Notes under the pieces: generated by a model
What the model saw: only the letters and a program-made list of their open reading frames with translations
Database searches by the model: none
Told to the model about the DNA's origin: nothing
Shown here: positions 4,977-37,475 of the stretch, piece after piece
How positions within the stretch are numbered: position 1 is the stretch's first letter
Layout of the letters: every line of letters begins with the position of its first letter
Origin: an uncultured Elusimicrobia bacterium
Lineage (GTDB): Bacteria > Elusimicrobiota > Endomicrobiia > DTEH01
Reading direction: 5' to 3'
Length of the DNA stretch: 64,000 nucleotides
NCBI GenBank assembly: GCA_964561135.1
Contig: CAZLOB010000038.1
Coordinates: 6,427 to 70,426, forward strand
Made by a program: the position numbers and the translations under genes

Positions 4977-6080
4977 TTACAAAATTATAGACAAAATAAA
5001 AGACAAAATTAGTAAAAATATATTTGGCAAGTACATAATAAACGCTATAGTAACAAAATTCGGAGAAATATTAGCATTTTCAACAAAAGACATACTTCCA
5101 ATAAGCAAAAAATAATACACACAAATAATAACAATTGCAAAAACAAAACTAAGTGATTTAGCATTTCTTTTAATCCTAGATCCAACTACAATTCCTATAA
5201 TCGTAAACACAACTATACTTAAAGATATTGTATGCCTTAAAAAATATTCGGCCAAAATAAATTTTTTATAATTTATAATGGTTGTTTTATAAAATTCTTG
5301 TAGAAGTTCTTTATTAGACAATTCACGCAAATTTAAAGATTCTGTAACAATTTTTTTAATTTGGCTGTTAGGTATTACAAATTTATAACTATCAAAATTA
5401 ATGTATGTCAACTGAGATGGAAGAGTTTTATCAAAAGTTAAAATTTCTCCTTGGTGCAAATTAAATATGATGTCCACATTACTATTTATAAAAACTTCAG
5501 CAACTTTGGCAAATATTGTTTGGATTATATCTTTTTCAATTGGACTAAAAATATATACGTTATATAAGACAAACTCATTCTTTTTTTGTTCAACAAATTT
5601 TTGATATACAATTTTTTTATTTTGCAAAACAACACTATAACTATTAAAACTCACATAGGGTTTTGATATAACATAATTTATGAACGTATACCTAAATTGT
5701 TTATAACTTTTTGGAACATAAACTGTATTAAAATAAAAGATAATTATTGTAAGCAAAACTGATAAAATAACTAAATTTTTAAAATAAAAACTTTTTTTAA
5801 CACCCATTGTTTGTAAAATTACACTTTCACTCGTCTCATTTAACATAGAAAAAGTAAACAGCACAGATATCAATAAACTTATCGGTATAGTCAATGAAAA
5901 AATAGAAGGTAAAAGATATAAACAAAGCTTTATACTTGTTACAAATTCTGTTTTGTAAGTTAGTAGAGAACTAATTAATTGATATATGTAACTTAATAAA
6001 AACAACAAAGAAGTTACACCAAAATAAATAAAAAAATAAGAAAAAAATGTTTTCAAAATATATTTATTGATTATTTTCAT
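4977..6080 (-). CDS. LptF/LptG-family (YjgP/YjgQ) LPS export permease
   Basis: MKIINKYILKTFFSYFFIYFGVTSLLFLLSYIYQLISSLL...LPSIFSLTIPISLLISVLFTFSMLNETSESVILQTMGV: characteristic permease N-terminus. Paired with the adjacent paralog. Confidence 0.5.
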   Translation of the reverse strand: MKIINKYILKTFFSYFFIYFGVTSLLFLLSYIYQLISSLLTYKTEFVTSIKLCLYLLPSIFSLTIPISLLISVLFTFSMLNETSESVILQTMGVKKSFYFKNLVILSVLLTIIIFYFNTVYVPKSYKQFRYTFINYVISKPYVSFNSYSVVLQNKKIVYQKFVEQKKNEFVLYNVYIFSPIEKDIIQTIFAKVAEVFINSNVDIIFNLHQGEILTFDKTLPSQLTYINFDSYKFVIPNSQIKKIVTESLNLRELSNKELLQEFYKTTIINYKKFILAEYFLRHTISLSIVVFTIIGIVVGSRIKRNAKSLSFVFAIVIICVYYFLLIGSMSFVENANISPNFVTIAFIMYLPNIFLLILSFILSIIL

Positions 6081-27955: not shown

Positions 27956-29232
27956 AGCTTTTAATCAAAAATGGTATTGTAGTAGAACCTTCAAAAAAAT
28001 TGCAGCAACAATTAGATGTATTAATAGATAATGGTAAAATTGTAAAAATAGCAAAAAAAATTGATTTAAAAGAAAAAACAGAAATAATAAATGCAAAAAA
28101 TTGTATTGTATGTCCAGGACTGATAGATATTCATACACATCTTCGTGAACCTGGTAACGAAGAAGAAGAAACAATTGCTACCGGAACAAAATCAGCAGCA
28201 GCTGGTGGGTTTACAACTGTATTTTGTATGCCAAATACTAACCCACCTATAGACAATCAAGCAACAGTAGAACTTGTAATGCTTAAAGCAAAAAATGAAG
28301 GAGTAATAAATGTTCTCCCTATTGGATGTATAACAAAACAACGTAAAGGTGAAGAACTTACTGAAATTGGCGAACTTAAGAACGCTGGTGTTGTAGCAAT
28401 TTCTGATGATGGTTCACCAGTGAAAAATTCTAAAATAATGCGTCGTGCTTTAGAATATGCGAAAATGTTTGATTTGGTTGTTATCTCGCATTGTGAAGAT
28501 ACTGATTTAAGTAAAGATGGAGTTATAAACGAAGGAAAAGTTTCAACACAACTTGGTCTTCGTGGTATACCTAAAGAAGCAGAAGAAATTATGGTAATTC
28601 GTGATATAATTTTAGCATCTTTAACACAAAGCAGGCTTCATATTACCCATGTCTCAACAAAAGGAGCAATAGAATTTATTCGTCAAGCTAAAAAAAATGG
28701 TGTAAAAATTACCTGCGACGTCACACCACACCATTTTGTGTTAACTGAAGAGAAACTTTTAGAACGACCATATGATACAAATTTAAAGATGAACCCTCCA
28801 CTTAGAACACAGGAAGATGTCAATGCTATAATTGATGGGTTAAAAAATGATGTTATTGATTGTATATCTTCTGACCATGCACCACATACTATAGAAGAAA
28901 AAAACAAAGAATTTGATTTAGCCCCTTTTGGTATTATTGGATTGGAAACAGTTCTACCTTTATGTATTACTTATCTTTATCACTTACATAAAATTCCTTT
29001 AATAAAACTATTAGAAAAATTAACAACAAATCCAGCAAAAATCTTTAACTTGAAAACTAAAGGAAGAATAGATGAAGGTTTTGATGCTGATATAACAATT
29101 TTTTCTTTAGACGAAGAGTTTGTTGTTAAAAAATTTTATTCAAAAAGTACTAACTCACCTTTTATCGGATGGAAACTAAAAGGTAAAATAAAATATACGA
29201 TTTGTAACGGAAAAGTTGTTTTTAAAGACTAA
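27952..29232 (+). CDS. pyrC: Dihydroorotase (class I)
   Basis: [10 protein letters not shown]; [10 protein letters not shown]; size and order after pyrB. Confidence 0.9.
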
Positions 29233-29237
29233 AAGAT

Positions 29238-30815
29238 TTAATTCGTTTCTTTTTCTAAACATTCTTGTAAACGTTTTTCTGCCTGGGGCGATAAGTTTAA
29301 AAATTCTATTCCCGTTCTGTATTGATTATAATTGTTCTCTAATCTTGTAGAATGTTTAACTTTGGCTATTGTCTCTATAGTAAAGTTAGGTAAATAAAGT
29401 TCGACTTCAAGAAATGTACCAACAGGAAGATCTTCGTTTGATATAAATTGTAATCCTCTTAAAGATATATTTCTTGTTTTTGCTAATATGGGAAATACAG
29501 CTTTCATATCTTCAGCTGTAAGTTTTTTATATGCAAATGAGATTTCTTTGTTCACACGAACAAATTTTCGTTCTTCAATAGAAAACAATTTTTTTGAAAC
29601 AAAAATGTCTACTATATTTTTGTCTATTTTTCCTTGGTCTGCCATTTCATAAAGTGTTTTTATTGCATCTTGTTGTGAGAAAGGTGGTTTATAAGGACGG
29701 TCATAACTTATCAGTGCATCATAAATATCTGCAACACATAAAATCCGTGCTAATAAAGGTATCTGTTCACCTTTAAGACCGTACGGATATCCGCTACCGT
29801 CCATAAATTCGTGGTGTAAAGAAGCTATATATGGTACATCTTTATATTCTTGTGGAAAATGTATTTTTGACAGTATGTCATAAGTTAGTGTAGCATGTGT
29901 TTTCATAATTTCATATTCTTCAGGAGTAAACCTACCTTGTTTTAATAAAATACTATCAGGGACACCAATTTTGCCTATATCATGTAATATTGCAGCATAT
30001 TCTAAAACTTTTTTTTCAGAAATATCTAAATTCATTGCTTTAGCAATATTTATAGCGTATCTCATAACACGTAATGAATGACCTTTAGTGGCTGGGTCGC
30101 GTGCATCAACTACTGCTGCAAAAGATTTTAATAGACTTTCAAGTAACAACTGTATTTGTCCATAAAGCTGTGCGTTAATTATAACATTAGTAATTTCATT
30201 ACACAACAACACTAATATTTCTTCATCTTTTTTTGAAAACCCTTTTTTACTTTTCTTGTTCAAAACTTCAATCACACCAATAACATTGTTAGATTTATCA
30301 AATACTGGGACAGAAAGAATCGTTTTTGTCCTAAATTTTATTTTTTGATCTATAATTGGAGAAAACCTTTTATCTTTATAAACATCGTCATTTATTCTCA
30401 CAATTTGGCCTGTCTTAGCAACATATCCTGCAATACCTTCACCTATTGGTAACACAATTTCTTCAACGAATTCTTCAGCAACTATTGTCCATAAAATGTT
30501 CGCTTCTTTATTAACTAAAAAAATGCTGCTTCGTTCAGCGTTTAATAAATCTGAAATTGAATGAGCAATAAAATTAAATAATACATTTATATCAGTACAA
30601 TAGATTAATTGTGATATAACGTTGTACACATTTTTATAAAACAACAAAGAACTTATTTTGAAGTTGAAATAAAGAAAAACAAATGTAATGATAAGTAAAA
30701 ATAAAAGAAAAGATAAAACAATCGAATGTTTTGAAACAAATATTATCAATATGTAGAAAATGATACCAAAAAGAAAAAAGAACAGCAAAAAATTTTTTTT
30801 ATGCATTTTATGCAT
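29238..30815 (-). CDS. Membrane-anchored GAF / HD-GYP c-di-GMP phosphodiesterase with C-terminal PilZ domain
   Basis: Two N-terminal TMs. GAF block (LLNAERSSIFLVNKEANILWT...GIAGYVAKTGQIVRINDD). HD-GYP block (HSLRVMRYA...ILHDIGKIGVPD...HHEFMDGSGYPYGLKG). C-terminal PilZ motifs RKFVR (RxxxR) and NISLRGLQF (D/NxSxxG). Confidence 0.7.
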   Translation of the reverse strand: MHKMHKKNFLLFFFLFGIIFYILIIFVSKHSIVLSFLLFLLIITFVFLYFNFKISSLLFYKNVYNVISQLIYCTDINVLFNFIAHSISDLLNAERSSIFLVNKEANILWTIVAEEFVEEIVLPIGEGIAGYVAKTGQIVRINDDVYKDKRFSPIIDQKIKFRTKTILSVPVFDKSNNVIGVIEVLNKKSKKGFSKKDEEILVLLCNEITNVIINAQLYGQIQLLLESLLKSFAAVVDARDPATKGHSLRVMRYAINIAKAMNLDISEKKVLEYAAILHDIGKIGVPDSILLKQGRFTPEEYEIMKTHATLTYDILSKIHFPQEYKDVPYIASLHHEFMDGSGYPYGLKGEQIPLLARILCVADIYDALISYDRPYKPPFSQQDAIKTLYEMADQGKIDKNIVDIFVSKKLFSIEERKFVRVNKEISFAYKKLTAEDMKAVFPILAKTRNISLRGLQFISNEDLPVGTFLEVELYLPNFTIETIAKVKHSTRLENNYNQYRTGIEFLNLSPQAEKRLQECLEKETN

Positions 30816-30926
30816 TTTTAAAAAACCAACTAGCCTGTATTTTCTTACTTATATACAAAATTAAAATTTTTTTGTCAATTACTTATTGAATTTGAAAAGA
30901 AAATAAAGTATAAAACAAAAAATAAC

Positions 30927-30999
30927 GGGGTGGTAGTTCAGTTGGGAGAACATCCGCTTGGCGTGCGGAAGGTCGGGGGTTCAACTCCCCTCCACTCCA
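30927..30999 (+). tRNA. tRNA-Ala (anticodon GGC)
   Basis: Acceptor GGGGTGG/CCACTCC with a G3:U70 wobble (the Ala identity element). D arm GTTC-AGTTGGGA-GAAC; anticodon stem TCCGC/GCGGA with loop TTGGCGT; T arm GGGGG-TTCAACT-CCCCT; discriminator A. Confidence 0.85.
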
Positions 31000-31231: not shown

Positions 31232-32173
31232 TTACTTTACAAATTCGAAAACTAAAGAAATCCTGTGAATATAACCTAACTCTTCACCAAAATATGTAAC
31301 CGCATAATCTAAAGAAGATCTAACACCAATAGCCGAGATTTTTTCCCACGAAGTTTCTTTACCTATTTCTGTTTTTACTCCAACTCCGAAACACCATCCT
31401 TTTTGAAGATCAACATTGTCTATTTGGTTATATCCAACACGAACAAAATATTTGTCTTGATATATATATTCTGCACCTGTATAAAACTTAATATTTGCAT
31501 CTTGTGGTTTTTCAATATCTAACCCAATAGATATATTATTTTTAGGTTTATATCCAGCACCAAATCTTATACTGAAAGGCAAGTTGTTTACTACATCCGA
31601 AACAATTATTTGTGTCCCTAAATTCTGCACATTAAGACCAAAAGAAAATTTTTCTATTAAAAACAATCCTGAAATATCAGCTGCGAAACCGTTTGCATTA
31701 TATTGACCATATTTTTGTAGAATACTTTTAACACTAATACCAAGGTTTAAATTTTTTGTAAAACTTCTCGCAAAAGTTAATACAATAGCAGCGTTGTATA
31801 TATCTTGTGCGTTTTCAATAAGACCACCGTTCTCATCACGAAATTCAAACCCACCACCAAAAGACAAGTAGTTCACAGCAACACCTACTGATTGTTTACC
31901 GAAAGGATATACAAAACCTAAGTAAGTACTATTTATTCCTTCAAACCATTGTAGATACGAAATAAATAATTCTGGATAAAGAACCAGAGTTGTCCCTGCA
32001 GGATTAAAATATATACTATTAACATCATCTGATATCCCAACGAACGCATTTCCCATACCAGCAGGTCTGCTACCAGGTGTAATTTTTAAAAACAATGCTG
32101 TTGAAGAACTTTTGTTATCTCCAGCAAAAAGAAAATAAACAAAAATAAGAATTATAATTAAGTATTTCTTCAT
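31232..32173 (-). CDS. Outer-membrane beta-barrel protein (PorV/PorP-SprF/FadL-like), downstream of giant T9SS-CTD cargo
   Basis: Internal start MKKYLIIILIFVYFLFAG avoids overlap with the upstream gene. Conserved N-terminal block PGSRPAGMGNAFVGISDDVNSIYFNPAGT. Terminal ...SLVFEFVK. Confidence 0.4.
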   Translation of the reverse strand: MKKYLIIILIFVYFLFAGDNKSSSTALFLKITPGSRPAGMGNAFVGISDDVNSIYFNPAGTTLVLYPELFISYLQWFEGINSTYLGFVYPFGKQSVGVAVNYLSFGGGFEFRDENGGLIENAQDIYNAAIVLTFARSFTKNLNLGISVKSILQKYGQYNANGFAADISGLFLIEKFSFGLNVQNLGTQIIVSDVVNNLPFSIRFGAGYKPKNNISIGLDIEKPQDANIKFYTGAEYIYQDKYFVRVGYNQIDNVDLQKGWCFGVGVKTEIGKETSWEKISAIGVRSSLDYAVTYFGEELGYIHRISLVFEFVK

Positions 32174-32192
32174 ACATTTTATTTTTATAATT

Positions 32193-35100
32193 TTATTTTT
32201 TAATAACAACTTGTTTTTTAGTAACAACATATTTCTTTCCTGACATTTCTTCAACTATAATTTTGCAAACATATACACCACTACCAACTTTTTGTTTTGC
32301 TTGGTTATCACATAACCATTCATATTGTTTATTTTCACCAGCAGAAGGATCAAGTTCTTCTTCTTTTACAAGTTCACCTAAAATGTTATAAATTCTTAAA
32401 GTAACTTTTTTTGCTGGATTTAATAATGAATATCTTAAAGTCACTTTACCAATTGAAGATGGATTAGGAAAAGTATACACACTATCTTTAAAAACTTCCT
32501 CTGCTGTAATAATATTTATGAAAAATTTCGATATATAAGTTGGCGAGGTGTTACCTGCGTTATCAACCAATGTTATATTTATTCTATATTCTCCATTAAT
32601 ATTCTGCTCGGGAAATGATAACAAAATAAGATAAGTAGTTGCGCTAATCTGTGTTAGTGATTTTATTGTTGAAACTTCTTTACCATCGGGACGATAAAGT
32701 CTAACATTTTGTGCTGAAAGATTTACTCCTGAACCACCTGTTTCTGTAAAAATTATTTGAATAGAACTAACTGCAACAGTAAATTTAGCGCCATCTTGTG
32801 GCCAAACAGATATAACTATTGGTGATGAAGTATCAGTTGCATATAGCTCTTGTAATTTCTTAAAGTTCACAGTAACAGAGGAAACAAGTGTGAGATCAAA
32901 ATCTATAACTTTTGCAAAAAAAGTCCTTGTTCCAGGTATGTTGCCAGTGTATACTGCTTTCACTTGACCATTAACATCTGTATAACTTGATAAAATAATA
33001 AACATATCATCTTGTGGTTTACTATCAACATATATTAAAACTTGTTTTTGTCCGATAGAAGGTATAGATGAAGAAATGATATTTCCGTATTGATCTTTAA
33101 GTGTCACCGTTATAATCACAGAACTTCCTATTAAAACATCATACGCAGTTGATTCTATTGTTGAGACAGTAGGTGACGGTTTCCCAGCAATAAGATCACT
33201 ACCTGGTAAAAACATAACAGCTGCTGTCGATAAAATTGTTTGGTTATCTGTTATATTATAAGCAGTGATAAATTTTAATTCTGCTTTTGTAGATGACAAC
33301 GTAGCAAAAGTTTGTCCTAAACTATTTGTTTTATCCTGTGGTTGAATAATTATATTCTGGGAACCAGTTACTGAAATTGACGCATCTTTATTAGCAACGG
33401 GTTGATTTGCAACATCTTTTAATGTTATAACAACATTTATTGTTGAACCAACAACAGCTTCATAATATTTTGTATAACTATCAATAATAGTCACACTTGA
33501 GAAAAATACACTTACTGCCCTTGTTATCCAAAACGTTTGTGATGCAGATTGTAATCCAGGATAAAAAACTGTAATGTTTTGTACGCCTGCTTCATTATCT
33601 CTGTATCTAAAACGCGCTTCTCCTAACACCATATTTACAGAATTACCTATCTCTACATTCGCTGTTGAACTTATAAAAGCATAATCTGAAGATGTTGTCT
33701 CTAAATAAACAATTCCTTCAATATCAACATCTTTATTTCCTTTTTCATCCTGTGCTTGGACAATAATTATTTGTGATGAAGACCCAGTAAGCAATTCCTG
33801 CCCAGCAGTAATAAATACAAGTTTTGTTGCAATAATATTATCAACTTGGAAACTCCCTGTTTGAACTGTTAAACCTACACCGTCTTCATCTTCAGGTGTA
33901 ATACGTATAGCTGTGGACACATCTTTATTGGGAAGGTCTTTTGTTGAATCCCAAATGAATGTATGTTCTTCACCTGATAAAGAAGCAAGTAAGTTTTCTG
34001 TTGGTTCTGAAGCGATCCATCTTGTAGCTGGTTTCCAATTACCATCTGTATCACGAAATTCTACTTTTATTTTACAATAATTATACGGCTCAGGTTTATC
34101 ATCTTCATCTATCAACCAATACTTTATTGTTACCAACCCTGTTTGTTCAGTAGATGGTGTTTCAATGACAACTTTTGGTGGTGTCCCTCTTACAACAAAT
34201 GTCTTAATTTCTGTGGCTTGTCCTGACGCTTCGTTTATTGATAAAACTACTGGTAAAGAAGTAGAATATATGTTATATGAATACGTTGCAATAGTTATAC
34301 TATATGGATTTTCAGCATAGAACCTATATTTTATTCTACCACCACTCCTACCAATACTACCAAACGGATAATTTATATTACTTAACACAAAATGGTATAT
34401 CTCACCATTAGTATAATCGCCATCATTACCCACACCTACTTTAAGTTGCATACCAAATTGTTCTGTTGTTTGGAATATAAGGTCATCGTTCAAATCAACC
34501 CATACTTGGACAGTAGTCGGCGGGTTACCATTACTTGCTAACCCAAGGTCAAAATATTTCACCTGAAATTCAACAGAACCAAATCTATCTATATAATTTG
34601 GTTCAACACCATCATCTACAAAACCACTAAAACCGCTATATACAATAGTAGGATCCCAATAAATTATGCTGTTAACCAAATCATCAGGTAAAAATGGTCT
34701 TGTATAATCTCTAAATGTTAAAACAGAATTTTTTGCACGAACATTAAAACATGCAGAAATTGTTGCTGTGTTTGTGTCAAGAACAATATTATCAAAAGTA
34801 TGTATGATATTGTTTGCAGTAATAAATGTAGTATATGTGGTAGCGGGTTGCAAGTTAGCAATATAAATTTTGTTTGTATTATTGAGTGGTGAACTATTAA
34901 ATGTGAGACCATTTGAATTTAAGAAAGTGAAACTTGTATATTCAATTTTAGTAATAGTTCCACCTAATGATAGTCCGTAATAAAAAAATTCTGTTCCAGA
35001 AACTATGTCATAACTTTTATCTTCAGCAAGTTTTCGCGTTACAATAGTAGGGGCTGCAGGATGACCAACAAATTCTATTGTTGCACCATCTTTGTTTTCA

Positions 35101-37475
35101 AAACATGCCCCAATATAATTGGGGTCTGAAAAATCGCATAAGTTAACTATTTTTTGTACATTTTTATCTTTTGATTCCGCGATTGTTACAAAAACATACT
35201 GTTCTCCTGGTGATATAGGTGATGCTCTATGTGTTAACCTAAACTTAACTTCTCCATTATCACTTATATAATCCTCATCATGAGTTAACAACCTTGACTG
35301 TACACCTGATTTTGTTCCATAAACTTGCCATTTATCTCCATCAGGTCCGTAACCATAACTTACAATCCATACTTCTGATTTTGTTGTAGAACTTGTTGTA
35401 ACAGATGTTATATCATTTGTCCCACCAGGGCCATCAACACCACCATCGTCGTAACGTAACATTGGTGTGTCATAAGAAAACAGTATAGTATTCCACCCAT
35501 GTGATTTTGTTTCATAAAGTTGATCTAAATAATTAAATTTTAACATATTTGAGGTATGCCAAGCATGAGCCGCTTGCGGCATTGAAAATTGTCCCCAGAT
35601 TCTTGTAAGACCCGGAATTCTATCATGATTTTGACTTATAACCCAAGAATTTTCTTTTGTAAATTCTTGTTTATATGGTGTATTGGCAAATTCTGTTGCA
35701 GAACCTAAGAAACAATTTTTCAACCATATTTGTGAAACATATCCTGTATTTTCTTCACCTTCTATATAAATATCACCACATTTGTTATCACTATAGTATT
35801 CATCAACACATAAATTGTCTATTGATGAATGTGACGCAAAACCATAACCTACATCATAACCAACATCGCCAGCATTACCAGTAGACACGTTCATCACAAA
35901 AATATTACCGTCAGAACCATATCTTACACGTATACCACCAACCTTGTTTGACCAACACTTGTTTGCACCTACATAGTTATATTTTGAACTTGACTCCAAA
36001 GCAATACCATACACACGATTGTTAAAACATTCATTGTTTATAATTACATTTTTGTTTGACCTAATTAGCGAAATACCTTCTTCTGCAAGTTGGTTATATA
36101 CTTTGTTTGAAGCAACTAAGTTTTTGTTAGAATCTTCAAAATATATCCCACGGATTTTGTTGTTATAAATCTCGTTGTATGAAATTTCGTTTTCAGAAGA
36201 ATTATCAAATCTTATCCCATATCCAACATTGCCACCTATATTTGAATAAATTTTGTTATTTCTTATATCTGACTTTTCTGTATTTTTAAACCACACACCA
36301 GCACGAACACAACTTCTTATTATATTTGATACTATCCCTTGAGAATACCACCAACGATTTATTCTTTTACAATTCTTAAACAATATCCCTGTATCAGGTG
36401 AAGAAGAAATGTCACAATTATAAAATTTTATATAATCTTTTGTACCATCAATAGGAGCACCAACACCAATGAAAACTATCCCATACAATTCATATCCTTC
36501 TGGTGTCGTTGTATCCCACAATCCTGTATGATGAACAACCACATTTTCCATTCTCATACCTACAGATGTTTCTTTATTTCGCTTCAAAGTTAAAATATAA
36601 TCAGCACTAATACTTATTGTCCTTTTAACAAATTCAGGATCAGGTTTGTCATGATTTGCCGGATTAGGATCGATTCCTACAATTTCCATATACCCTAAAT
36701 TTGTAGCGGCACCTAAATACAAATCTAATGTTGTATTGATAATTGGATTATAGAAATATATGTTTTTATTATTTTCTATTTCTTCAAAAATAAAACTACC
36801 CGGCGTGTTTATTAAAAGCATACCGTTGTTTATTAGCTTACCAGAACCATATACAGAAAAATTTACAATTGTAGATGAAACTACCTTAAATATACAATCT
36901 TTATCTATAGTAAGATTTAAAGTGTTAATAACAACATTTGAGTTTAAAGAATTACTACCAAAAACAACTTCAAACTTTGACCCATTATACTCATTTTTTG
37001 CAAGTTCTATATCTGAAAAGATGTTGATATCTACCCTTACATCTGATGTATCTATATTGATTACAAAATCGTTATTTTCTACCAACTTAAGCTTTTGGCA
37101 GGAAAGGTAGAACTTATCGTTTTCATTAGATGAATTTATTATTATTTGAGCAGCATTCCCACAATATATATCACCACTTATTGTTAAAGTGCTTCCTGTA
37201 ACACCATCAGAAACAAATCTTAATGTAGCATATTTATCTAAAGTTAATGATGCTGCAGAACATATTGCAGTAGTATCAATTATAATTATAAATCCTTGTG
37301 AAATTACAACATCATCACCTACTGTAGGAATAGTCCCGCTATCCCAAGTATTAGGTGAATTCCATAAAAGTGGTACTCCAGCTGTTCCCGTAGAAGTTAT
37401 AACTGCTGTATACCCTATTGAAGAAAATAATATGTAAAAAAGTAAAAAAGATATGAATAACTTTGTTTCTTTCAC
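32193..37475 (-). CDS. Giant (1760 aa) cell-surface protein: right-handed beta-helix (PbH1) repeats plus multiple Ig-like domains plus T9SS C-terminal sorting domain
   Basis: Signal peptide MKETKLFISFLLFYILFSSIGYTAV. Beta-helix repeats (NNKIYSNIGGNVGYGIRFDNSSENEISYNEIYNNKIRGIYFEDSNKNLVASNKVYN...). C-terminal CTD (KVTLRIYNILGELVKEEELDPSAGENKQYEWLCDNQAKQKVGSGVYVCKIIVEE...). Confidence 0.7.
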   Translation of the reverse strand: MKETKLFISFLLFYILFSSIGYTAVITSTGTAGVPLLWNSPNTWDSGTIPTVGDDVVISQGFIIIIDTTAICSAASLTLDKYATLRFVSDGVTGSTLTISGDIYCGNAAQIIINSSNENDKFYLSCQKLKLVENNDFVINIDTSDVRVDINIFSDIELAKNEYNGSKFEVVFGSNSLNSNVVINTLNLTIDKDCIFKVVSSTIVNFSVYGSGKLINNGMLLINTPGSFIFEEIENNKNIYFYNPIINTTLDLYLGAATNLGYMEIVGIDPNPANHDKPDPEFVKRTISISADYILTLKRNKETSVGMRMENVVVHHTGLWDTTTPEGYELYGIVFIGVGAPIDGTKDYIKFYNCDISSSPDTGILFKNCKRINRWWYSQGIVSNIIRSCVRAGVWFKNTEKSDIRNNKIYSNIGGNVGYGIRFDNSSENEISYNEIYNNKIRGIYFEDSNKNLVASNKVYNQLAEEGISLIRSNKNVIINNECFNNRVYGIALESSSKYNYVGANKCWSNKVGGIRVRYGSDGNIFVMNVSTGNAGDVGYDVGYGFASHSSIDNLCVDEYYSDNKCGDIYIEGEENTGYVSQIWLKNCFLGSATEFANTPYKQEFTKENSWVISQNHDRIPGLTRIWGQFSMPQAAHAWHTSNMLKFNYLDQLYETKSHGWNTILFSYDTPMLRYDDGGVDGPGGTNDITSVTTSSTTKSEVWIVSYGYGPDGDKWQVYGTKSGVQSRLLTHDEDYISDNGEVKFRLTHRASPISPGEQYVFVTIAESKDKNVQKIVNLCDFSDPNYIGACFENKDGATIEFVGHPAAPTIVTRKLAEDKSYDIVSGTEFFYYGLSLGGTITKIEYTSFTFLNSNGLTFNSSPLNNTNKIYIANLQPATTYTTFITANNIIHTFDNIVLDTNTATISACFNVRAKNSVLTFRDYTRPFLPDDLVNSIIYWDPTIVYSGFSGFVDDGVEPNYIDRFGSVEFQVKYFDLGLASNGNPPTTVQVWVDLNDDLIFQTTEQFGMQLKVGVGNDGDYTNGEIYHFVLSNINYPFGSIGRSGGRIKYRFYAENPYSITIATYSYNIYSTSLPVVLSINEASGQATEIKTFVVRGTPPKVVIETPSTEQTGLVTIKYWLIDEDDKPEPYNYCKIKVEFRDTDGNWKPATRWIASEPTENLLASLSGEEHTFIWDSTKDLPNKDVSTAIRITPEDEDGVGLTVQTGSFQVDNIIATKLVFITAGQELLTGSSSQIIIVQAQDEKGNKDVDIEGIVYLETTSSDYAFISSTANVEIGNSVNMVLGEARFRYRDNEAGVQNITVFYPGLQSASQTFWITRAVSVFFSSVTIIDSYTKYYEAVVGSTINVVITLKDVANQPVANKDASISVTGSQNIIIQPQDKTNSLGQTFATLSSTKAELKFITAYNITDNQTILSTAAVMFLPGSDLIAGKPSPTVSTIESTAYDVLIGSSVIITVTLKDQYGNIISSSIPSIGQKQVLIYVDSKPQDDMFIILSSYTDVNGQVKAVYTGNIPGTRTFFAKVIDFDLTLVSSVTVNFKKLQELYATDTSSPIVISVWPQDGAKFTVAVSSIQIIFTETGGSGVNLSAQNVRLYRPDGKEVSTIKSLTQISATTYLILLSFPEQNINGEYRINITLVDNAGNTSPTYISKFFINIITAEEVFKDSVYTFPNPSSIGKVTLRYSLLNPAKKVTLRIYNILGELVKEEELDPSAGENKQYEWLCDNQAKQKVGSGVYVCKIIVEEMSGKKYVVTKKQVVIKK

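What the first reader, a model, noticed from the sequence alone, without database searches (positions are those of the whole stretch)
29238..30815. Single polypeptide combining sensor GAF, HD-GYP c-di-GMP phosphodiesterase and PilZ c-di-GMP receptor domains
All three domain signatures can be read directly: HD...HHExxDGSGYP for HD-GYP, and RxxxR plus NxSxxG for PilZ. The protein sits behind two N-terminal TM helices. A degrading enzyme that carries its own c-di-GMP-binding PilZ domain implies product/substrate feedback or localized signalling. This architecture is uncommon.
Basis: seen in the sequence. Interest (0 to 1): 0.55.

Follow-up and report, generated by a model that had tools for sequence, protein, structure and literature searches.

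The report
Membrane c-di-GMP phosphodiesterase with built-in PilZ
This gene encodes a membrane-anchored enzyme that should destroy the bacterial signal molecule c-di-GMP and that also carries its own c-di-GMP-binding PilZ domain; the combination is rare among such enzymes, conserved across several phyla, noted in domain surveys since 2006, and has never been tested in this active form.

Summary
ORF 29238-30815 (minus strand, 525 aa) has two N-terminal hydrophobic helices, then GAF (58 bits), HD-GYP (HD_5, 142 bits) and PilZ (44.7 bits; cut-off 22.5).

- **HD-GYP:** Seven of PmGH's eight metal ligands, the GYP loop and the RxxK substrate motif are present and invariant in 30 homologs. Only the third-metal Glu is missing (Ala242), which places the enzyme in the binuclear class.
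- **Rarity:** Only 28 of the top 150 clusters in a search matching about 69,000 HD-GYP clusters span both HD-GYP and PilZ. The fusion occurs in Elusimicrobiota/Endomicrobiia, Planctomycetota and Desulfobacterales. The HD-GYP-PilZ core also occurs behind HAMP or MFS modules, or with no sensor.
- **Context:** The gene is monocistronic, next to a conserved divergent tRNA-Ala among housekeeping genes.
- **Prior knowledge:** PilZ/HD-GYP fusions were listed in 2006. The one studied example (ECA3548) has the reverse domain order and a dead HD-GYP.

Best reading: a PDE regulated in cis, probably activated by its own substrate. The direction of regulation is inferred. This is a new variant of a known kind, of moderate interest.

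The parts
29238..30815 (-). Complete CDS, 525 aa plus stop codon: 2TM-GAF-HD-GYP-PilZ protein
   Evidence: ORF list. An identical protein exists in public assemblies (P0001; L085).
30735..30791 (-). Hydrophobic helix 1 (residues about 9-27), preceded by the Lys-rich N-terminus MHKMHKK
   Evidence: Kyte-Doolittle 19-residue window reaches 3.15. AlphaFold helix 2-28. Hydrophobic N-termini are conserved in the Endomicrobiia-type members.
30666..30722 (-). Hydrophobic helix 2 (residues about 32-50). It follows helix 1 after a 4-residue loop (SKHS), so the pair forms a hairpin anchor with no periplasmic sensor domain
   Evidence: Hydropathy reaches 2.94. AlphaFold helix 32-70 continues into the GAF domain.
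30186..30590 (-). GAF domain (residues 76-210) with an NK-x5-F-x3-DE motif (N186, K187, F193, D197, E198)
   Evidence: Pfam GAF 58.4 bits. Sequence matches to the CyaB2 (E 1e-31) and PDE2A/5/6 GAF domains. N, K, F and D are invariant and E is present in 25 of 30 homologs.
30099..30233 (-). Long connecting helix (residues 195-239) between GAF and HD-GYP
   Evidence: AlphaFold helix 195-239. Foldseek aligns the GAF-HD-GYP part (358 columns) with PmGH 4mcw, TM-score 0.83 normalised to the target.
29613..30122 (-). HD-GYP catalytic domain (residues 232-401). Metal ligands: H246, H278, D279, H307, H334, H335, D363. GYP loop: 340-344. RxxK motif: R373/K376. Ala242 occupies the position of PmGH Glu185
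   Evidence: Pfam HD_5 141.9 bits. Residue-by-residue alignment to PmGH 4mcw, E 1e-68. All listed residues are invariant in 30 homologs, and position 242 is V, A or T in all 30.
29556..29612 (-). Short conserved junction (residues 402-420). The last HD-GYP helix ends at 407 and the RxxxR motif begins at 416. F405 is invariant and Y411 (Phe in this protein) is at least 90% conserved
   Evidence: Alignment A1 and AlphaFold secondary structure.
29253..29570 (-). [quoted passage not shown]
30927..30999 (+). Divergent tRNA-Ala(GGC), which bounds the promoter region of the gene and separates it from the upstream minus-strand genes
   Evidence: Rfam, 65 bits. ARAGORN. The same tRNA lies in the same position in relatives L081, L083 and L085.

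Best explanation
The gene encodes a cytoplasmic-membrane-anchored class II (HD-GYP) c-di-GMP phosphodiesterase with two allosteric modules flanking the catalytic domain.

What the sequence and models show:
- A two-helix hairpin tethers the protein to the membrane, with all domains in the cytoplasm.
- The GAF domain is of the cyclic-nucleotide-binding type and is joined to the catalytic domain by a long helix, as in PmGH.
- The HD-GYP has a complete binuclear metal site and the RxxK motif that contacts the substrate guanine.
- A canonical PilZ follows. Its RxxxR arm starts only about 8 residues after the last catalytic helix.

What is inferred:
- c-di-GMP binds the PilZ through RxxxR and [D/N]hSxxG. 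As in other PilZ proteins, where the binding site lies in the inter-domain linker, this should reorient the PilZ barrel relative to the adjoining HD-GYP and change catalytic output in cis.
- I commit to activation. When c-di-GMP is high the PilZ is occupied and an autoinhibition is relieved, so the enzyme acts as a substrate-activated governor that caps c-di-GMP near the membrane. The precedents are c-di-GMP activation of BcsA through its PilZ and cGMP activation of PDE2/PDE5 through their GAF domains.
- The GAF supplies a second, independent input, possibly cAMP or cGMP as in Tlr0485.
- The likely main product is pGpG, because the third-metal Glu is absent.

My probabilities: about 0.6 that PilZ occupancy regulates catalysis in cis in either direction, and about 0.4 that it does so by activation.
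For: - All three domains score above Pfam's cut-offs.
- The alignment to PmGH (E 1e-68) maps H189, H221, D222, H250, H276, H277, D305, Y285, R314 and K317 onto identical residues. All of them are invariant in 30 homologs down to 35% identity. Residue roles come from Galperin & Chou, bioRxiv 10.1101/2021.11.05.467447.
- PilZ motif conservation in 30 homologs: R416 in 30, R420 in 29, D/N449 in 28, I/V450 in 29, S451 in 28, G454 in 28.
- The PilZ fold is confirmed by model and fold search.
- The junction is short and conserved (F405, Y411, R416).
- The HD-GYP-PilZ pair persists while the N-terminal module varies: GAF, HAMP+GAF, MFS, HAMP alone, or none. This argues that the pair is the selected functional unit.
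- No conserved operon partner exists, which argues that the PilZ's target is the enzyme it is attached to.
[quoted passage not shown] Ligand binding causes substantial conformational change, and fused PilZ domains can affect enzyme activity (PMC10333796).
- cAMP controls a GAF-HD-GYP enzyme, Tlr0485.
Against: - Nothing computed here shows the direction of regulation, or that any regulation occurs.
- The inter-domain geometry of the AlphaFold model is uncertain (pTM 0.60), and I could not inspect coordinates or the predicted aligned error.
- Some family members (P0021, P0026, P0045) keep a PilZ-sized tail but have lost the binding motifs. The tail therefore has some role that does not need c-di-GMP.
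- The region between the two PilZ motifs carries a variable, low-confidence insert (pLDDT 54-72).
- Some HD-GYPs that lack the third-metal Glu still make GMP, so the product prediction is soft.
- V-cGAP3, a cGAMP-specific enzyme, is the second-best PDB match, so substrate specificity is not proven.
Confidence: 0.4

Rival explanations
1. c-di-GMP bound at the PilZ inhibits the HD-GYP. This is substrate inhibition through a separate site. Once c-di-GMP rises above a threshold the enzyme shuts off, which gives positive feedback and a bistable high/low c-di-GMP switch.
For: The structural evidence is the same as for the best explanation: intact PilZ motifs, a short conserved junction and an intact catalytic site. 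Sequence cannot distinguish the sign of regulation.
Against: The mechanistic precedents I know for a ligand-binding domain fused to the enzyme it regulates, with that enzyme's own substrate or activator as the ligand, are activating: BcsA-PilZ and cGMP-GAF in PDE2/PDE5 (established knowledge, not tested here). A PDE that switches off when its substrate accumulates would need another PDE to reset the system, and none is visible in this window. The window is only 64 kb, so this is weak.
Confidence: 0.2
2. The PilZ is an output or docking module rather than a regulator of catalysis. When loaded with c-di-GMP it binds a partner protein, such as a diguanylate cyclase or a membrane machine, and so places the phosphodiesterase next to a specific c-di-GMP source or target. 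This would be a fused version of the RpfG (HD-GYP)-GGDEF-PilZ complexes described in Xanthomonas.
For: The protein is membrane-anchored. Members with degenerate PilZ motifs keep the domain, as expected of a protein-interaction surface. Non-binding PilZ domains acting as adaptors are known, for example the Xanthomonas PilZ-FimX-PilB complex, and an HD-GYP/GGDEF/PilZ complex has been reported (reference list of PMC10333796; bioRxiv 10.1101/814665).
Against: No partner gene is conserved next to the gene in any lineage examined. In most members the c-di-GMP-binding residues are under strong constraint. The junction with the catalytic domain is short and conserved, which favours coupling within the molecule.
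Confidence: 0.2
3. The protein is a c-di-GMP receptor rather than an enzyme. The HD-GYP would be catalytically silent, like ECA3548 or HnoD, and the protein would only sense c-di-GMP.
For: The only studied PilZ/HD-GYP fusion, ECA3548, is inactive. Inactive HD-GYP domains with regulatory roles are known.
Against: Inactive HD-GYPs have altered HD and HHE motifs. Here HD, HHE, GYP, D363 and RxxK are all intact and invariant in 30 homologs. The closest solved relative, PmGH, is an active PDE.
Confidence: 0.05
4. The PilZ is a substrate-capture antenna. It binds c-di-GMP with high affinity next to the active site and hands it over, which lowers the effective Km without any allosteric change.
For: The PilZ binding arm lies close to the catalytic domain and the binding motifs are intact.
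Against: PilZ domains bind c-di-GMP tightly, wrapped by the RxxxR arm, which by established knowledge favours sequestration rather than hand-over. No precedent is known to me, and none turned up in the papers searched.
Confidence: 0.05

Closest known systems
PmGH of Persephonella marina (PDB 4mcw/4mdz), the structurally characterised GAF-HD-GYP c-di-GMP phosphodiesterase
   Same: The GAF, long helix and HD-GYP are arranged the same way. Sequence E-value is 1e-68 over residues 74-414. Foldseek E-value is 5e-32, with 37% identity and a TM-score of 0.83 normalised to the target. Seven of eight metal ligands, the GYP Tyr and RxxK are identical. PmGH ends almost exactly where the PilZ begins here (...MFSIK against ...LFSIEERKFVR).
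   Different: PmGH has no membrane anchor and no PilZ. PmGH has Glu185 and a trinuclear iron site, whereas this protein has Ala242 and so belongs to the binuclear class.
ECA3548 of Pectobacterium atrosepticum (PilZN-PilZ-HD-GYP), the only PilZ/HD-GYP fusion with experimental data found in the literature searched
   Same: One polypeptide holds both a PilZ and an HD-GYP domain.
   Different: The domain order is reversed, with an N-terminal YcgR-like PilZN-PilZ pair. The ECA3548 HD-GYP is degenerate (HD to HT, HHE to ANE) and hydrolyses neither c-di-GMP nor pGpG. Here the HD-GYP is intact, the PilZ is C-terminal, and a GAF and a membrane anchor are present.
Tlr0485 of Thermosynechococcus vulcanus (GAF-HD-GYP), whose PDE activity depends on cAMP binding to the GAF
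   Same: It has a GAF-HD-GYP architecture with an allosteric small-molecule input. The GAF here is of the cyclic-nucleotide type by its NKFDE motif and its PDB matches.
   Different: It has no PilZ. The ligand of the GAF here is unknown and was not tested.
BcsA cellulose synthase (catalytic domain followed by a C-terminal PilZ)
   Different: In BcsA, c-di-GMP is only a signal. Here it would also be the substrate of the regulated enzyme.
Eukaryotic PDE2/PDE5/PDE6 (GAF-regulated cyclic-nucleotide phosphodiesterases)
   Same: The logic is the same: a phosphodiesterase with a non-catalytic binding site for its own substrate class. The GAF domain here matches their GAF domains (E 1e-20 to 1e-16).
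   Different: The catalytic fold and the nucleotide are unrelated. The self-sensing site here is a PilZ rather than a GAF.

Membership tests
HD-GYP domain (class II c-di-GMP phosphodiesterase) | Profile match to the HD-GYP-type HD domain (Pfam HD_5, PF13487) | tested here: met
   141.9 bits, E 2e-41, cut-off 27.2, covering model positions 3-170 of 170.
HD-GYP domain (class II c-di-GMP phosphodiesterase) | HD dyad and the His/Asp metal ligands (PmGH H189, H221, D222, H250, H276, H277, D305) | tested here: met
   H246, H278, D279, H307, H334, H335 and D363 align to them. All seven are invariant in 30 homologs.
HD-GYP domain (class II c-di-GMP phosphodiesterase) | HHExxDGxGYP motif, including the substrate-contacting Tyr | tested here: met
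   HHEFMDGSGYP at 334-344. H, H, E, G, G, Y and P are invariant in 30 homologs.
HD-GYP domain (class II c-di-GMP phosphodiesterase) | RxxK (RxY[K/R]) motif, which gives guanine contact and c-di-GMP specificity | tested here: met
   DRPYK with R373 and K376, invariant in 30 homologs. Role taken. Caveat: the cGAMP-specific V-cGAP3 also keeps RxYR.
HD-GYP domain (class II c-di-GMP phosphodiesterase) | Metal-dependent hydrolysis of c-di-GMP | not testable with these tools
   Needs a biochemical assay.
Trinuclear HD-GYP subclass (PmGH, TM0186, PA4108) | An acidic residue at the PmGH Glu185 position, which binds the third metal | tested here: not met
   Ala242 here; V, A or T in all 30 family members. 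The nearest PilZ-less relatives also mostly lack it. The protein is therefore filed under the binuclear subclass (PA4781-like).
Canonical PilZ domain (c-di-GMP receptor) | Profile match to Pfam PilZ (PF07238) above the gathering score | tested here: met
   44.7 bits against 22.5, E 1.8e-11, covering model positions 3-101 of 102.
Canonical PilZ domain (c-di-GMP receptor) | RxxxR motif in the N-terminal arm | tested here: met
   RKFVR at 416-420. R416 is present in 30 of 30 homologs and R420 in 29 of 30.
Canonical PilZ domain (c-di-GMP receptor) | [D/N]hSxxG motif with a hydrophobic h | tested here: met
   NISLRG at 449-454. D/N in 28, I/V in 29, S in 28 and G in 28 of 30 homologs. Motif definition.
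Canonical PilZ domain (c-di-GMP receptor) | [quoted passage not shown] | tested here: met
Canonical PilZ domain (c-di-GMP receptor) | Measured c-di-GMP binding | not testable with these tools
   Needs ITC, DRaCALA or MST.
Cyclic-nucleotide-type GAF domain | GAF profile match and the NKFDE signature | tested here: met
   Pfam GAF 58.4 bits. NK-x5-F-x3-DE at 186-198, with N, K, F and D invariant and E in 25 of 30 homologs. Best GAF matches are CyaB2 and PDE2A/5/6; Foldseek also matches the cAMP-bound Lcd1 GAF, 5w10. The NKFDE criterion comes from my own knowledge of the GAF literature.
Cyclic-nucleotide-type GAF domain | Binding of cAMP or cGMP | not tested
   I did not compare pocket residues. 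PmGH's own GAF ligand is unknown.
ECA3548-type PilZN-PilZ-HD-GYP receptors | N-terminal YcgR-like PilZN-PilZ pair with a degenerate HD-GYP | tested here: not met
   There is no PilZN hit, the PilZ is C-terminal and the HD-GYP motifs are intact.

The most novel reading that the evidence does not exclude
The HD-GYP-PilZ core is a self-contained c-di-GMP 'governor'. The PilZ reads the concentration of the enzyme's own substrate and switches the phosphodiesterase on cooperatively. That would make it the first bacterial c-di-GMP phosphodiesterase shown to be allosterically controlled by c-di-GMP through a dedicated receptor domain, and a prokaryotic counterpart of cGMP-stimulated PDE2/PDE5. Because the core is portable, it can be placed behind GAF, HAMP or even an MFS transporter body, so that different inputs set the threshold.
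Probability: 0.35. Interest if true: 0.65.

Novelty: new variant of a known kind. Interest (0 to 1): 0.4.

Why it matters
How cells keep c-di-GMP within bounds, and how individual phosphodiesterases act locally, are open questions in second-messenger signalling. Product inhibition of the cyclases (the I-site) is well established. An equivalent built-in sensor on the degrading side has not been demonstrated for HD-GYP enzymes in the literature I could search. This family offers a compact test case: an apparently active HD-GYP with a canonical c-di-GMP receptor attached through a short conserved junction. Nature also supplies controls, in the form of members with degenerate PilZ motifs and members with different N-terminal sensors. 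In the Endomicrobiia-type lineage the gene sits at a fixed, syntenic, housekeeping locus, which suggests a core role rather than an accessory one.

Tried and rejected
1. **Species-genome scan.** I scanned the species-representative genomes with the junction profile A2.
2. **Word-indexed homolog search with the PilZ-only profile A3.** It returned only 7 proteins and missed the known family members, so it is uninformative.
3. **Sequence-only profile search of the PilZ against PDB chains.** Nothing was significant. The best hit was YpfA/MotI at E 0.3, which is a PilZ protein. I replaced this test with structure comparison.
4. **Foldseek on the full-length model.** The results are dominated by GAF and HD-GYP hits, with no PilZ in the top 50. 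I therefore modelled the PilZ alone.
5. **AFDB50 fold search.** The library was not available.
6. **Riboswitch idea.** I considered that the 416-bp upstream gap might hold a c-di-GMP riboswitch. Rfam finds only a tRNA there, so I rejected it.
7. **Operon idea.** I considered that the gene might be co-transcribed with the upstream PorV-like and 1760-aa genes. The conserved divergent tRNA-Ala lies between them, and those two genes are absent in syntenic relatives, so I rejected it.
8. **Third-metal Glu idea.** I considered that loss of the third-metal Glu might be specific to the PilZ-bearing clade. The nearest PilZ-less relatives also lack it, so I rejected it.
9. **Conserved partner gene idea.** I looked for a partner gene conserved across phyla and found none.
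10. **Sigma-70 promoter scan.** It found no site in the 30816-30926 gap and fewer sites than in shuffled sequence, so it is uninformative for this lineage.
11. **Other c-di-GMP genes in the window.** A motif scan found no GGDEF, EAL or second HD-GYP or PilZ candidate. This was a regular-expression scan only.
12. **Paper look-ups.** Two papers were not held.
Full report
**1. The observation**

The ORF list shows a single ORF at exactly 29238..30815, on the minus strand, 525 aa from an ATG start. Pfam hmmscan gives three non-overlapping domains, all above their curated cut-offs:
- GAF, residues 76-210: 58.4 bits against 22.4
- HD_5, the HD-GYP-type model, residues 232-401: 141.9 bits, E 2e-41
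- PilZ, residues 416-521: 44.7 bits against 22.5, E 1.8e-11, covering almost the whole model

NCBIfam's best match is the catalytic part of a response-regulator c-di-GMP phosphodiesterase family, at 103.7 bits. That is far below the 400-bit full-length cut-off, as expected for a different architecture.

Two strongly hydrophobic segments (about residues 9-27 and 32-50) are joined by only four residues, SKHS, and follow a Lys-rich N-terminus. AlphaFold models them as two long helices. From the positive-inside rule and the short loop, I infer an N-in hairpin anchor with no periplasmic sensor and with all domains in the cytoplasm.

**2. Is the HD-GYP catalytically competent?**

The closest solved structure is PmGH of Persephonella marina (4mcw), a GAF-HD-GYP enzyme. 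It matches at E 1e-68 over residues 74-414. Foldseek on my full-length model gives E 5e-32 and a TM-score of 0.83 normalised to PmGH.

I checked the PDB chain numbering, which runs 6 ahead of native numbering, against the published KPG (K235/G237) and RxxK (R314/K317) positions. The alignment then maps PmGH residues onto the query as follows:

| PmGH residue | Query residue |
|---|---|
| H189 | H246 |
| H221 / D222 | H278 / D279 |
| H250 | H307 |
| H276 / H277 | H334 / H335 |
| D305 | D363 |
| Y285 | Y343 |
| R314 / K317 | R373 / K376 |

All of these are invariant in an alignment of 30 family members reaching down to 35% identity.

The one difference is PmGH Glu185, the ligand of the third metal. 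It is Ala242 here and V, A or T in all 30 members. According to Galperin & Chou (bioRxiv 10.1101/2021.11.05.467447), this separates binuclear from trinuclear HD-GYPs. It correlates, though not absolutely, with stopping at pGpG rather than going on to GMP. It is not a sign of inactivity. Inactive HD-GYPs have altered HD and HHE motifs, and those are intact here. The missing Glu is shared with the nearest PilZ-less relatives, so it is a trait of the branch and not of the fusion.

**3. Is the C-terminus really a PilZ?**

Four lines of evidence agree, and one test was uninformative:
- The HMM score is twice the cut-off.
- The binding residues are conserved across the family: R416 in 30 of 30, R420 in 29, D/N449 in 28, the hydrophobic h residue (I/V450) in 29, S451 in 28 and G454 in 28. 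This fits the refined [D/N]hSxxG motif.
- AlphaFold models show a beta-barrel followed by a terminal helix. This holds for the full-length model (pLDDT 85) and for the domain alone (pLDDT 81).
- Foldseek ranks the same structures first, but its best E-value is only 0.018. A sequence-only profile search of the PDB was not significant (YpfA/MotI, E 0.3). PilZ sequences diverge fast, so I give these two results little weight in either direction.

A low-confidence helical insert (residues 434-445) lies between the two motifs. In Desulfobacterales members this position expands by tens of residues.

**4. The GAF domain**

Its best matches are cyclic-nucleotide-binding GAF domains: CyaB2 at E 1e-31, PDE2A/5/6 at E 1e-20 to 1e-16 and, by Foldseek, the cAMP-bound Lcd1 GAF. 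It carries an NK-x5-F-x3-DE signature that is conserved in the family. One GAF-HD-GYP enzyme, Tlr0485, is known to be cAMP-dependent, while PmGH's GAF ligand is unknown. I did not test the ligand here.

**5. How common is the architecture, and what varies?**

Of the best 120 clusters at 90% identity found with the whole protein, 79 carry GAF+HD_5+PilZ, with identity running from 100% down to 35%. Source names place them in Elusimicrobiota/Endomicrobiia, Planctomycetota and Desulfobacteraceae/Desulfobacterales, and one comes from a TARA ocean sample. No source name mentions the PilZ.

There are three sub-architectures:
- 2TM-GAF-HD-GYP-PilZ, the type in this window and its Endomicrobiia-like relatives
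- 2TM-HAMP-GAF-HD-GYP-PilZ
- soluble GAF-HD-GYP-PilZ

I also ran an exhaustive HMM search of 1.84 billion representatives at 50% identity, using a profile of the HD-GYP C-terminal half plus the PilZ. It found 69,025 proteins at E <= 1e-10. Among the best 150, only 28 (29 with one fragment) match in one stretch through the PilZ. This is a lower bound, but it puts the fusion at roughly one in a few thousand HD-GYP clusters.

Among those hits, the HD-GYP-PilZ core also occurs behind an MFS transporter body (P0181), behind HAMP with two PilZ stretches (P0277), and with no recognised sensor (P0174). The pair is therefore the conserved unit, and the sensor in front of it is interchangeable.

Three members keep a PilZ-sized tail but have degenerate motifs (P0021, P0026, P0045).

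**6. Genomic context**

A tRNA-Ala(GGC) lies on the opposite strand at 30927-30999, about 110 bp upstream of the start codon. The same tRNA is in the same place in relatives. Downstream, the stop codon is 5 bp from the stop of a convergent pyrC. The gene is therefore monocistronic.

In Endomicrobiia-type relatives the locus is syntenic. On one side lie tsaE, a TsaD-family gene, an HTH gene and a radical-SAM gene; on the other lie pyrC, pyrB, pyrR, a LUD-domain gene, murG and ftsW. In this window a PorV-like gene and a 1760-aa surface protein are inserted on the upstream side. Distant members sit in unrelated neighbourhoods.

No riboswitch was found, and no other c-di-GMP gene was found in the window by motif scan. 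The organism is probably an Elusimicrobiota/Endomicrobiia-like bacterium with about 29% G+C. I infer this from homolog names, synteny and composition.

**7. Mechanism**

The analyses above show an intact binuclear HD-GYP site, intact PilZ binding motifs, a junction of about 8 residues between the last catalytic helix (399-407) and the RxxxR arm (416), and conservation of that junction (F405, Y411, R416).

The rest is inference. [quoted passage not shown] Occupancy of the PilZ should therefore reposition it against the HD-GYP and change catalysis in cis.

I favour activation, meaning relief of autoinhibition at high c-di-GMP. This rests on analogy with BcsA-PilZ and with cGMP-stimulated PDE2/PDE5, both from established knowledge. 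It would make the enzyme a membrane-proximal governor of c-di-GMP, with the GAF as a second input.

My probabilities are about 0.6 for cis regulation of catalysis in either direction and about 0.4 for activation specifically. The rivals are:
- inhibition, giving a bistable switch: 0.2
- c-di-GMP-dependent docking to a partner, a fused analogue of the Xanthomonas RpfG-GGDEF-PilZ complexes cited: 0.2
- a catalytically silent receptor: 0.05
- substrate capture: 0.05

The motif-degenerate members show that the tail has some function that does not need c-di-GMP. This fits either an autoinhibitory role or a docking role.

**8. Comparison with what is known, and novelty**

PilZ fusions with HD-GYP, GGDEF and EAL domains were listed in the original 2006 description of PilZ, as summarised in bioRxiv 10.1101/814665. 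The only such protein with experimental data that I could find is ECA3548. It has the reverse domain order and a dead HD-GYP. The 2021 survey of HD-GYP architectures mentions PilZ only in that context in its text, and its Table 3 is an image I could not read. Searches of the held library found nothing on GAF-HD-GYP-PilZ proteins or on c-di-GMP signalling in Endomicrobia.

The protein is a clear member of the HD-GYP, PilZ and GAF families. It is not a member of the trinuclear subclass or of the ECA3548 type. I rate it a new variant of a known kind. The parts and the bare domain combination are known, but an apparently active HD-GYP with a cis canonical PilZ, conserved as a portable core, has not been characterised.

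**9. Verdict**

The finding is real, correctly located and correctly interpreted at the domain level. The feedback idea is plausible but untested. Interest is moderate (0.4). A specialist would not be surprised that the fusion exists, but the family makes substrate-level self-regulation of a c-di-GMP phosphodiesterase directly testable.

Noticed in passing
window 30927-30999 (+); L081 5822-5898, L083 5775-5851, L085 2229-2301: A tRNA-Ala(GGC) lies divergently about 110 bp upstream of the gene, and the same arrangement is conserved in relatives. The gene and the tRNA therefore share a short divergent promoter region.
   Followed up: yes
window 31232-37475 (-): Two genes are present here but absent from the otherwise syntenic loci of relatives L081 and L083. 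One is a 340-aa outer-membrane-like protein with a weak PorV match (E 4e-4, below cut-off). The other is a 1760-aa protein with Beta_helix/NosD, Big_1 and C-terminal FlgD_ig matches. They look like a lineage-specific insertion of a surface protein with a possible type IX secretion-like partner. The two ORF calls overlap by 62 bp, so the TTG start of the smaller gene is doubtful.
   Followed up: partly
P0181 (717 aa), P0277 (804 aa), P0174 (401 aa), found: The HD-GYP-PilZ core also occurs fused to a complete MFS transporter body (MFS_1, residues 17-325), to HAMP with two PilZ stretches, and with no recognised sensor domain. The MFS fusion would couple a transporter-like membrane domain directly to c-di-GMP turnover.
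   Followed up: partly
P0021, P0026 (55-57% identical, Endomicrobiia-like clade) and P0045: These family members keep a PilZ-sized C-terminal tail but have lost the binding motifs. P0026 has KKFLR instead of RxxxR and no [D/N]xSxxG. P0021 and P0045 lack the second motif. None has a precomputed Pfam PilZ hit. They are natural variants that have probably lost c-di-GMP binding.
   Followed up: partly
window about 28000-30000: Cumulative GC skew peaks here. This is the same place where a long run of plus-strand genes (through pyrC) meets a long run of minus-strand genes, with the two stop codons 5 bp apart. It could be a replication terminus or simply coding-strand bias.
   Followed up: no
residue 415 of the protein (window 29571-29573) and alignment A1: The residue just before RxxxR is Glu here and Gln in the closest relatives, but Arg (RRxxxR) in most other clades. 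From memory of the PP4397 and VCA0042 work, this position influences whether a PilZ binds monomeric or dimeric c-di-GMP. I did not verify this here.
   Followed up: no
L022 (Gemmatimonadota MAG contig JASFUR010000145.1), match at 5050-5418: This is the clearest hit of the otherwise unproductive genome scan to extend well past the HD-GYP part (query residues 1-140 of the junction profile, 38% identity). It may be another phylum carrying the fusion.
   Followed up: no
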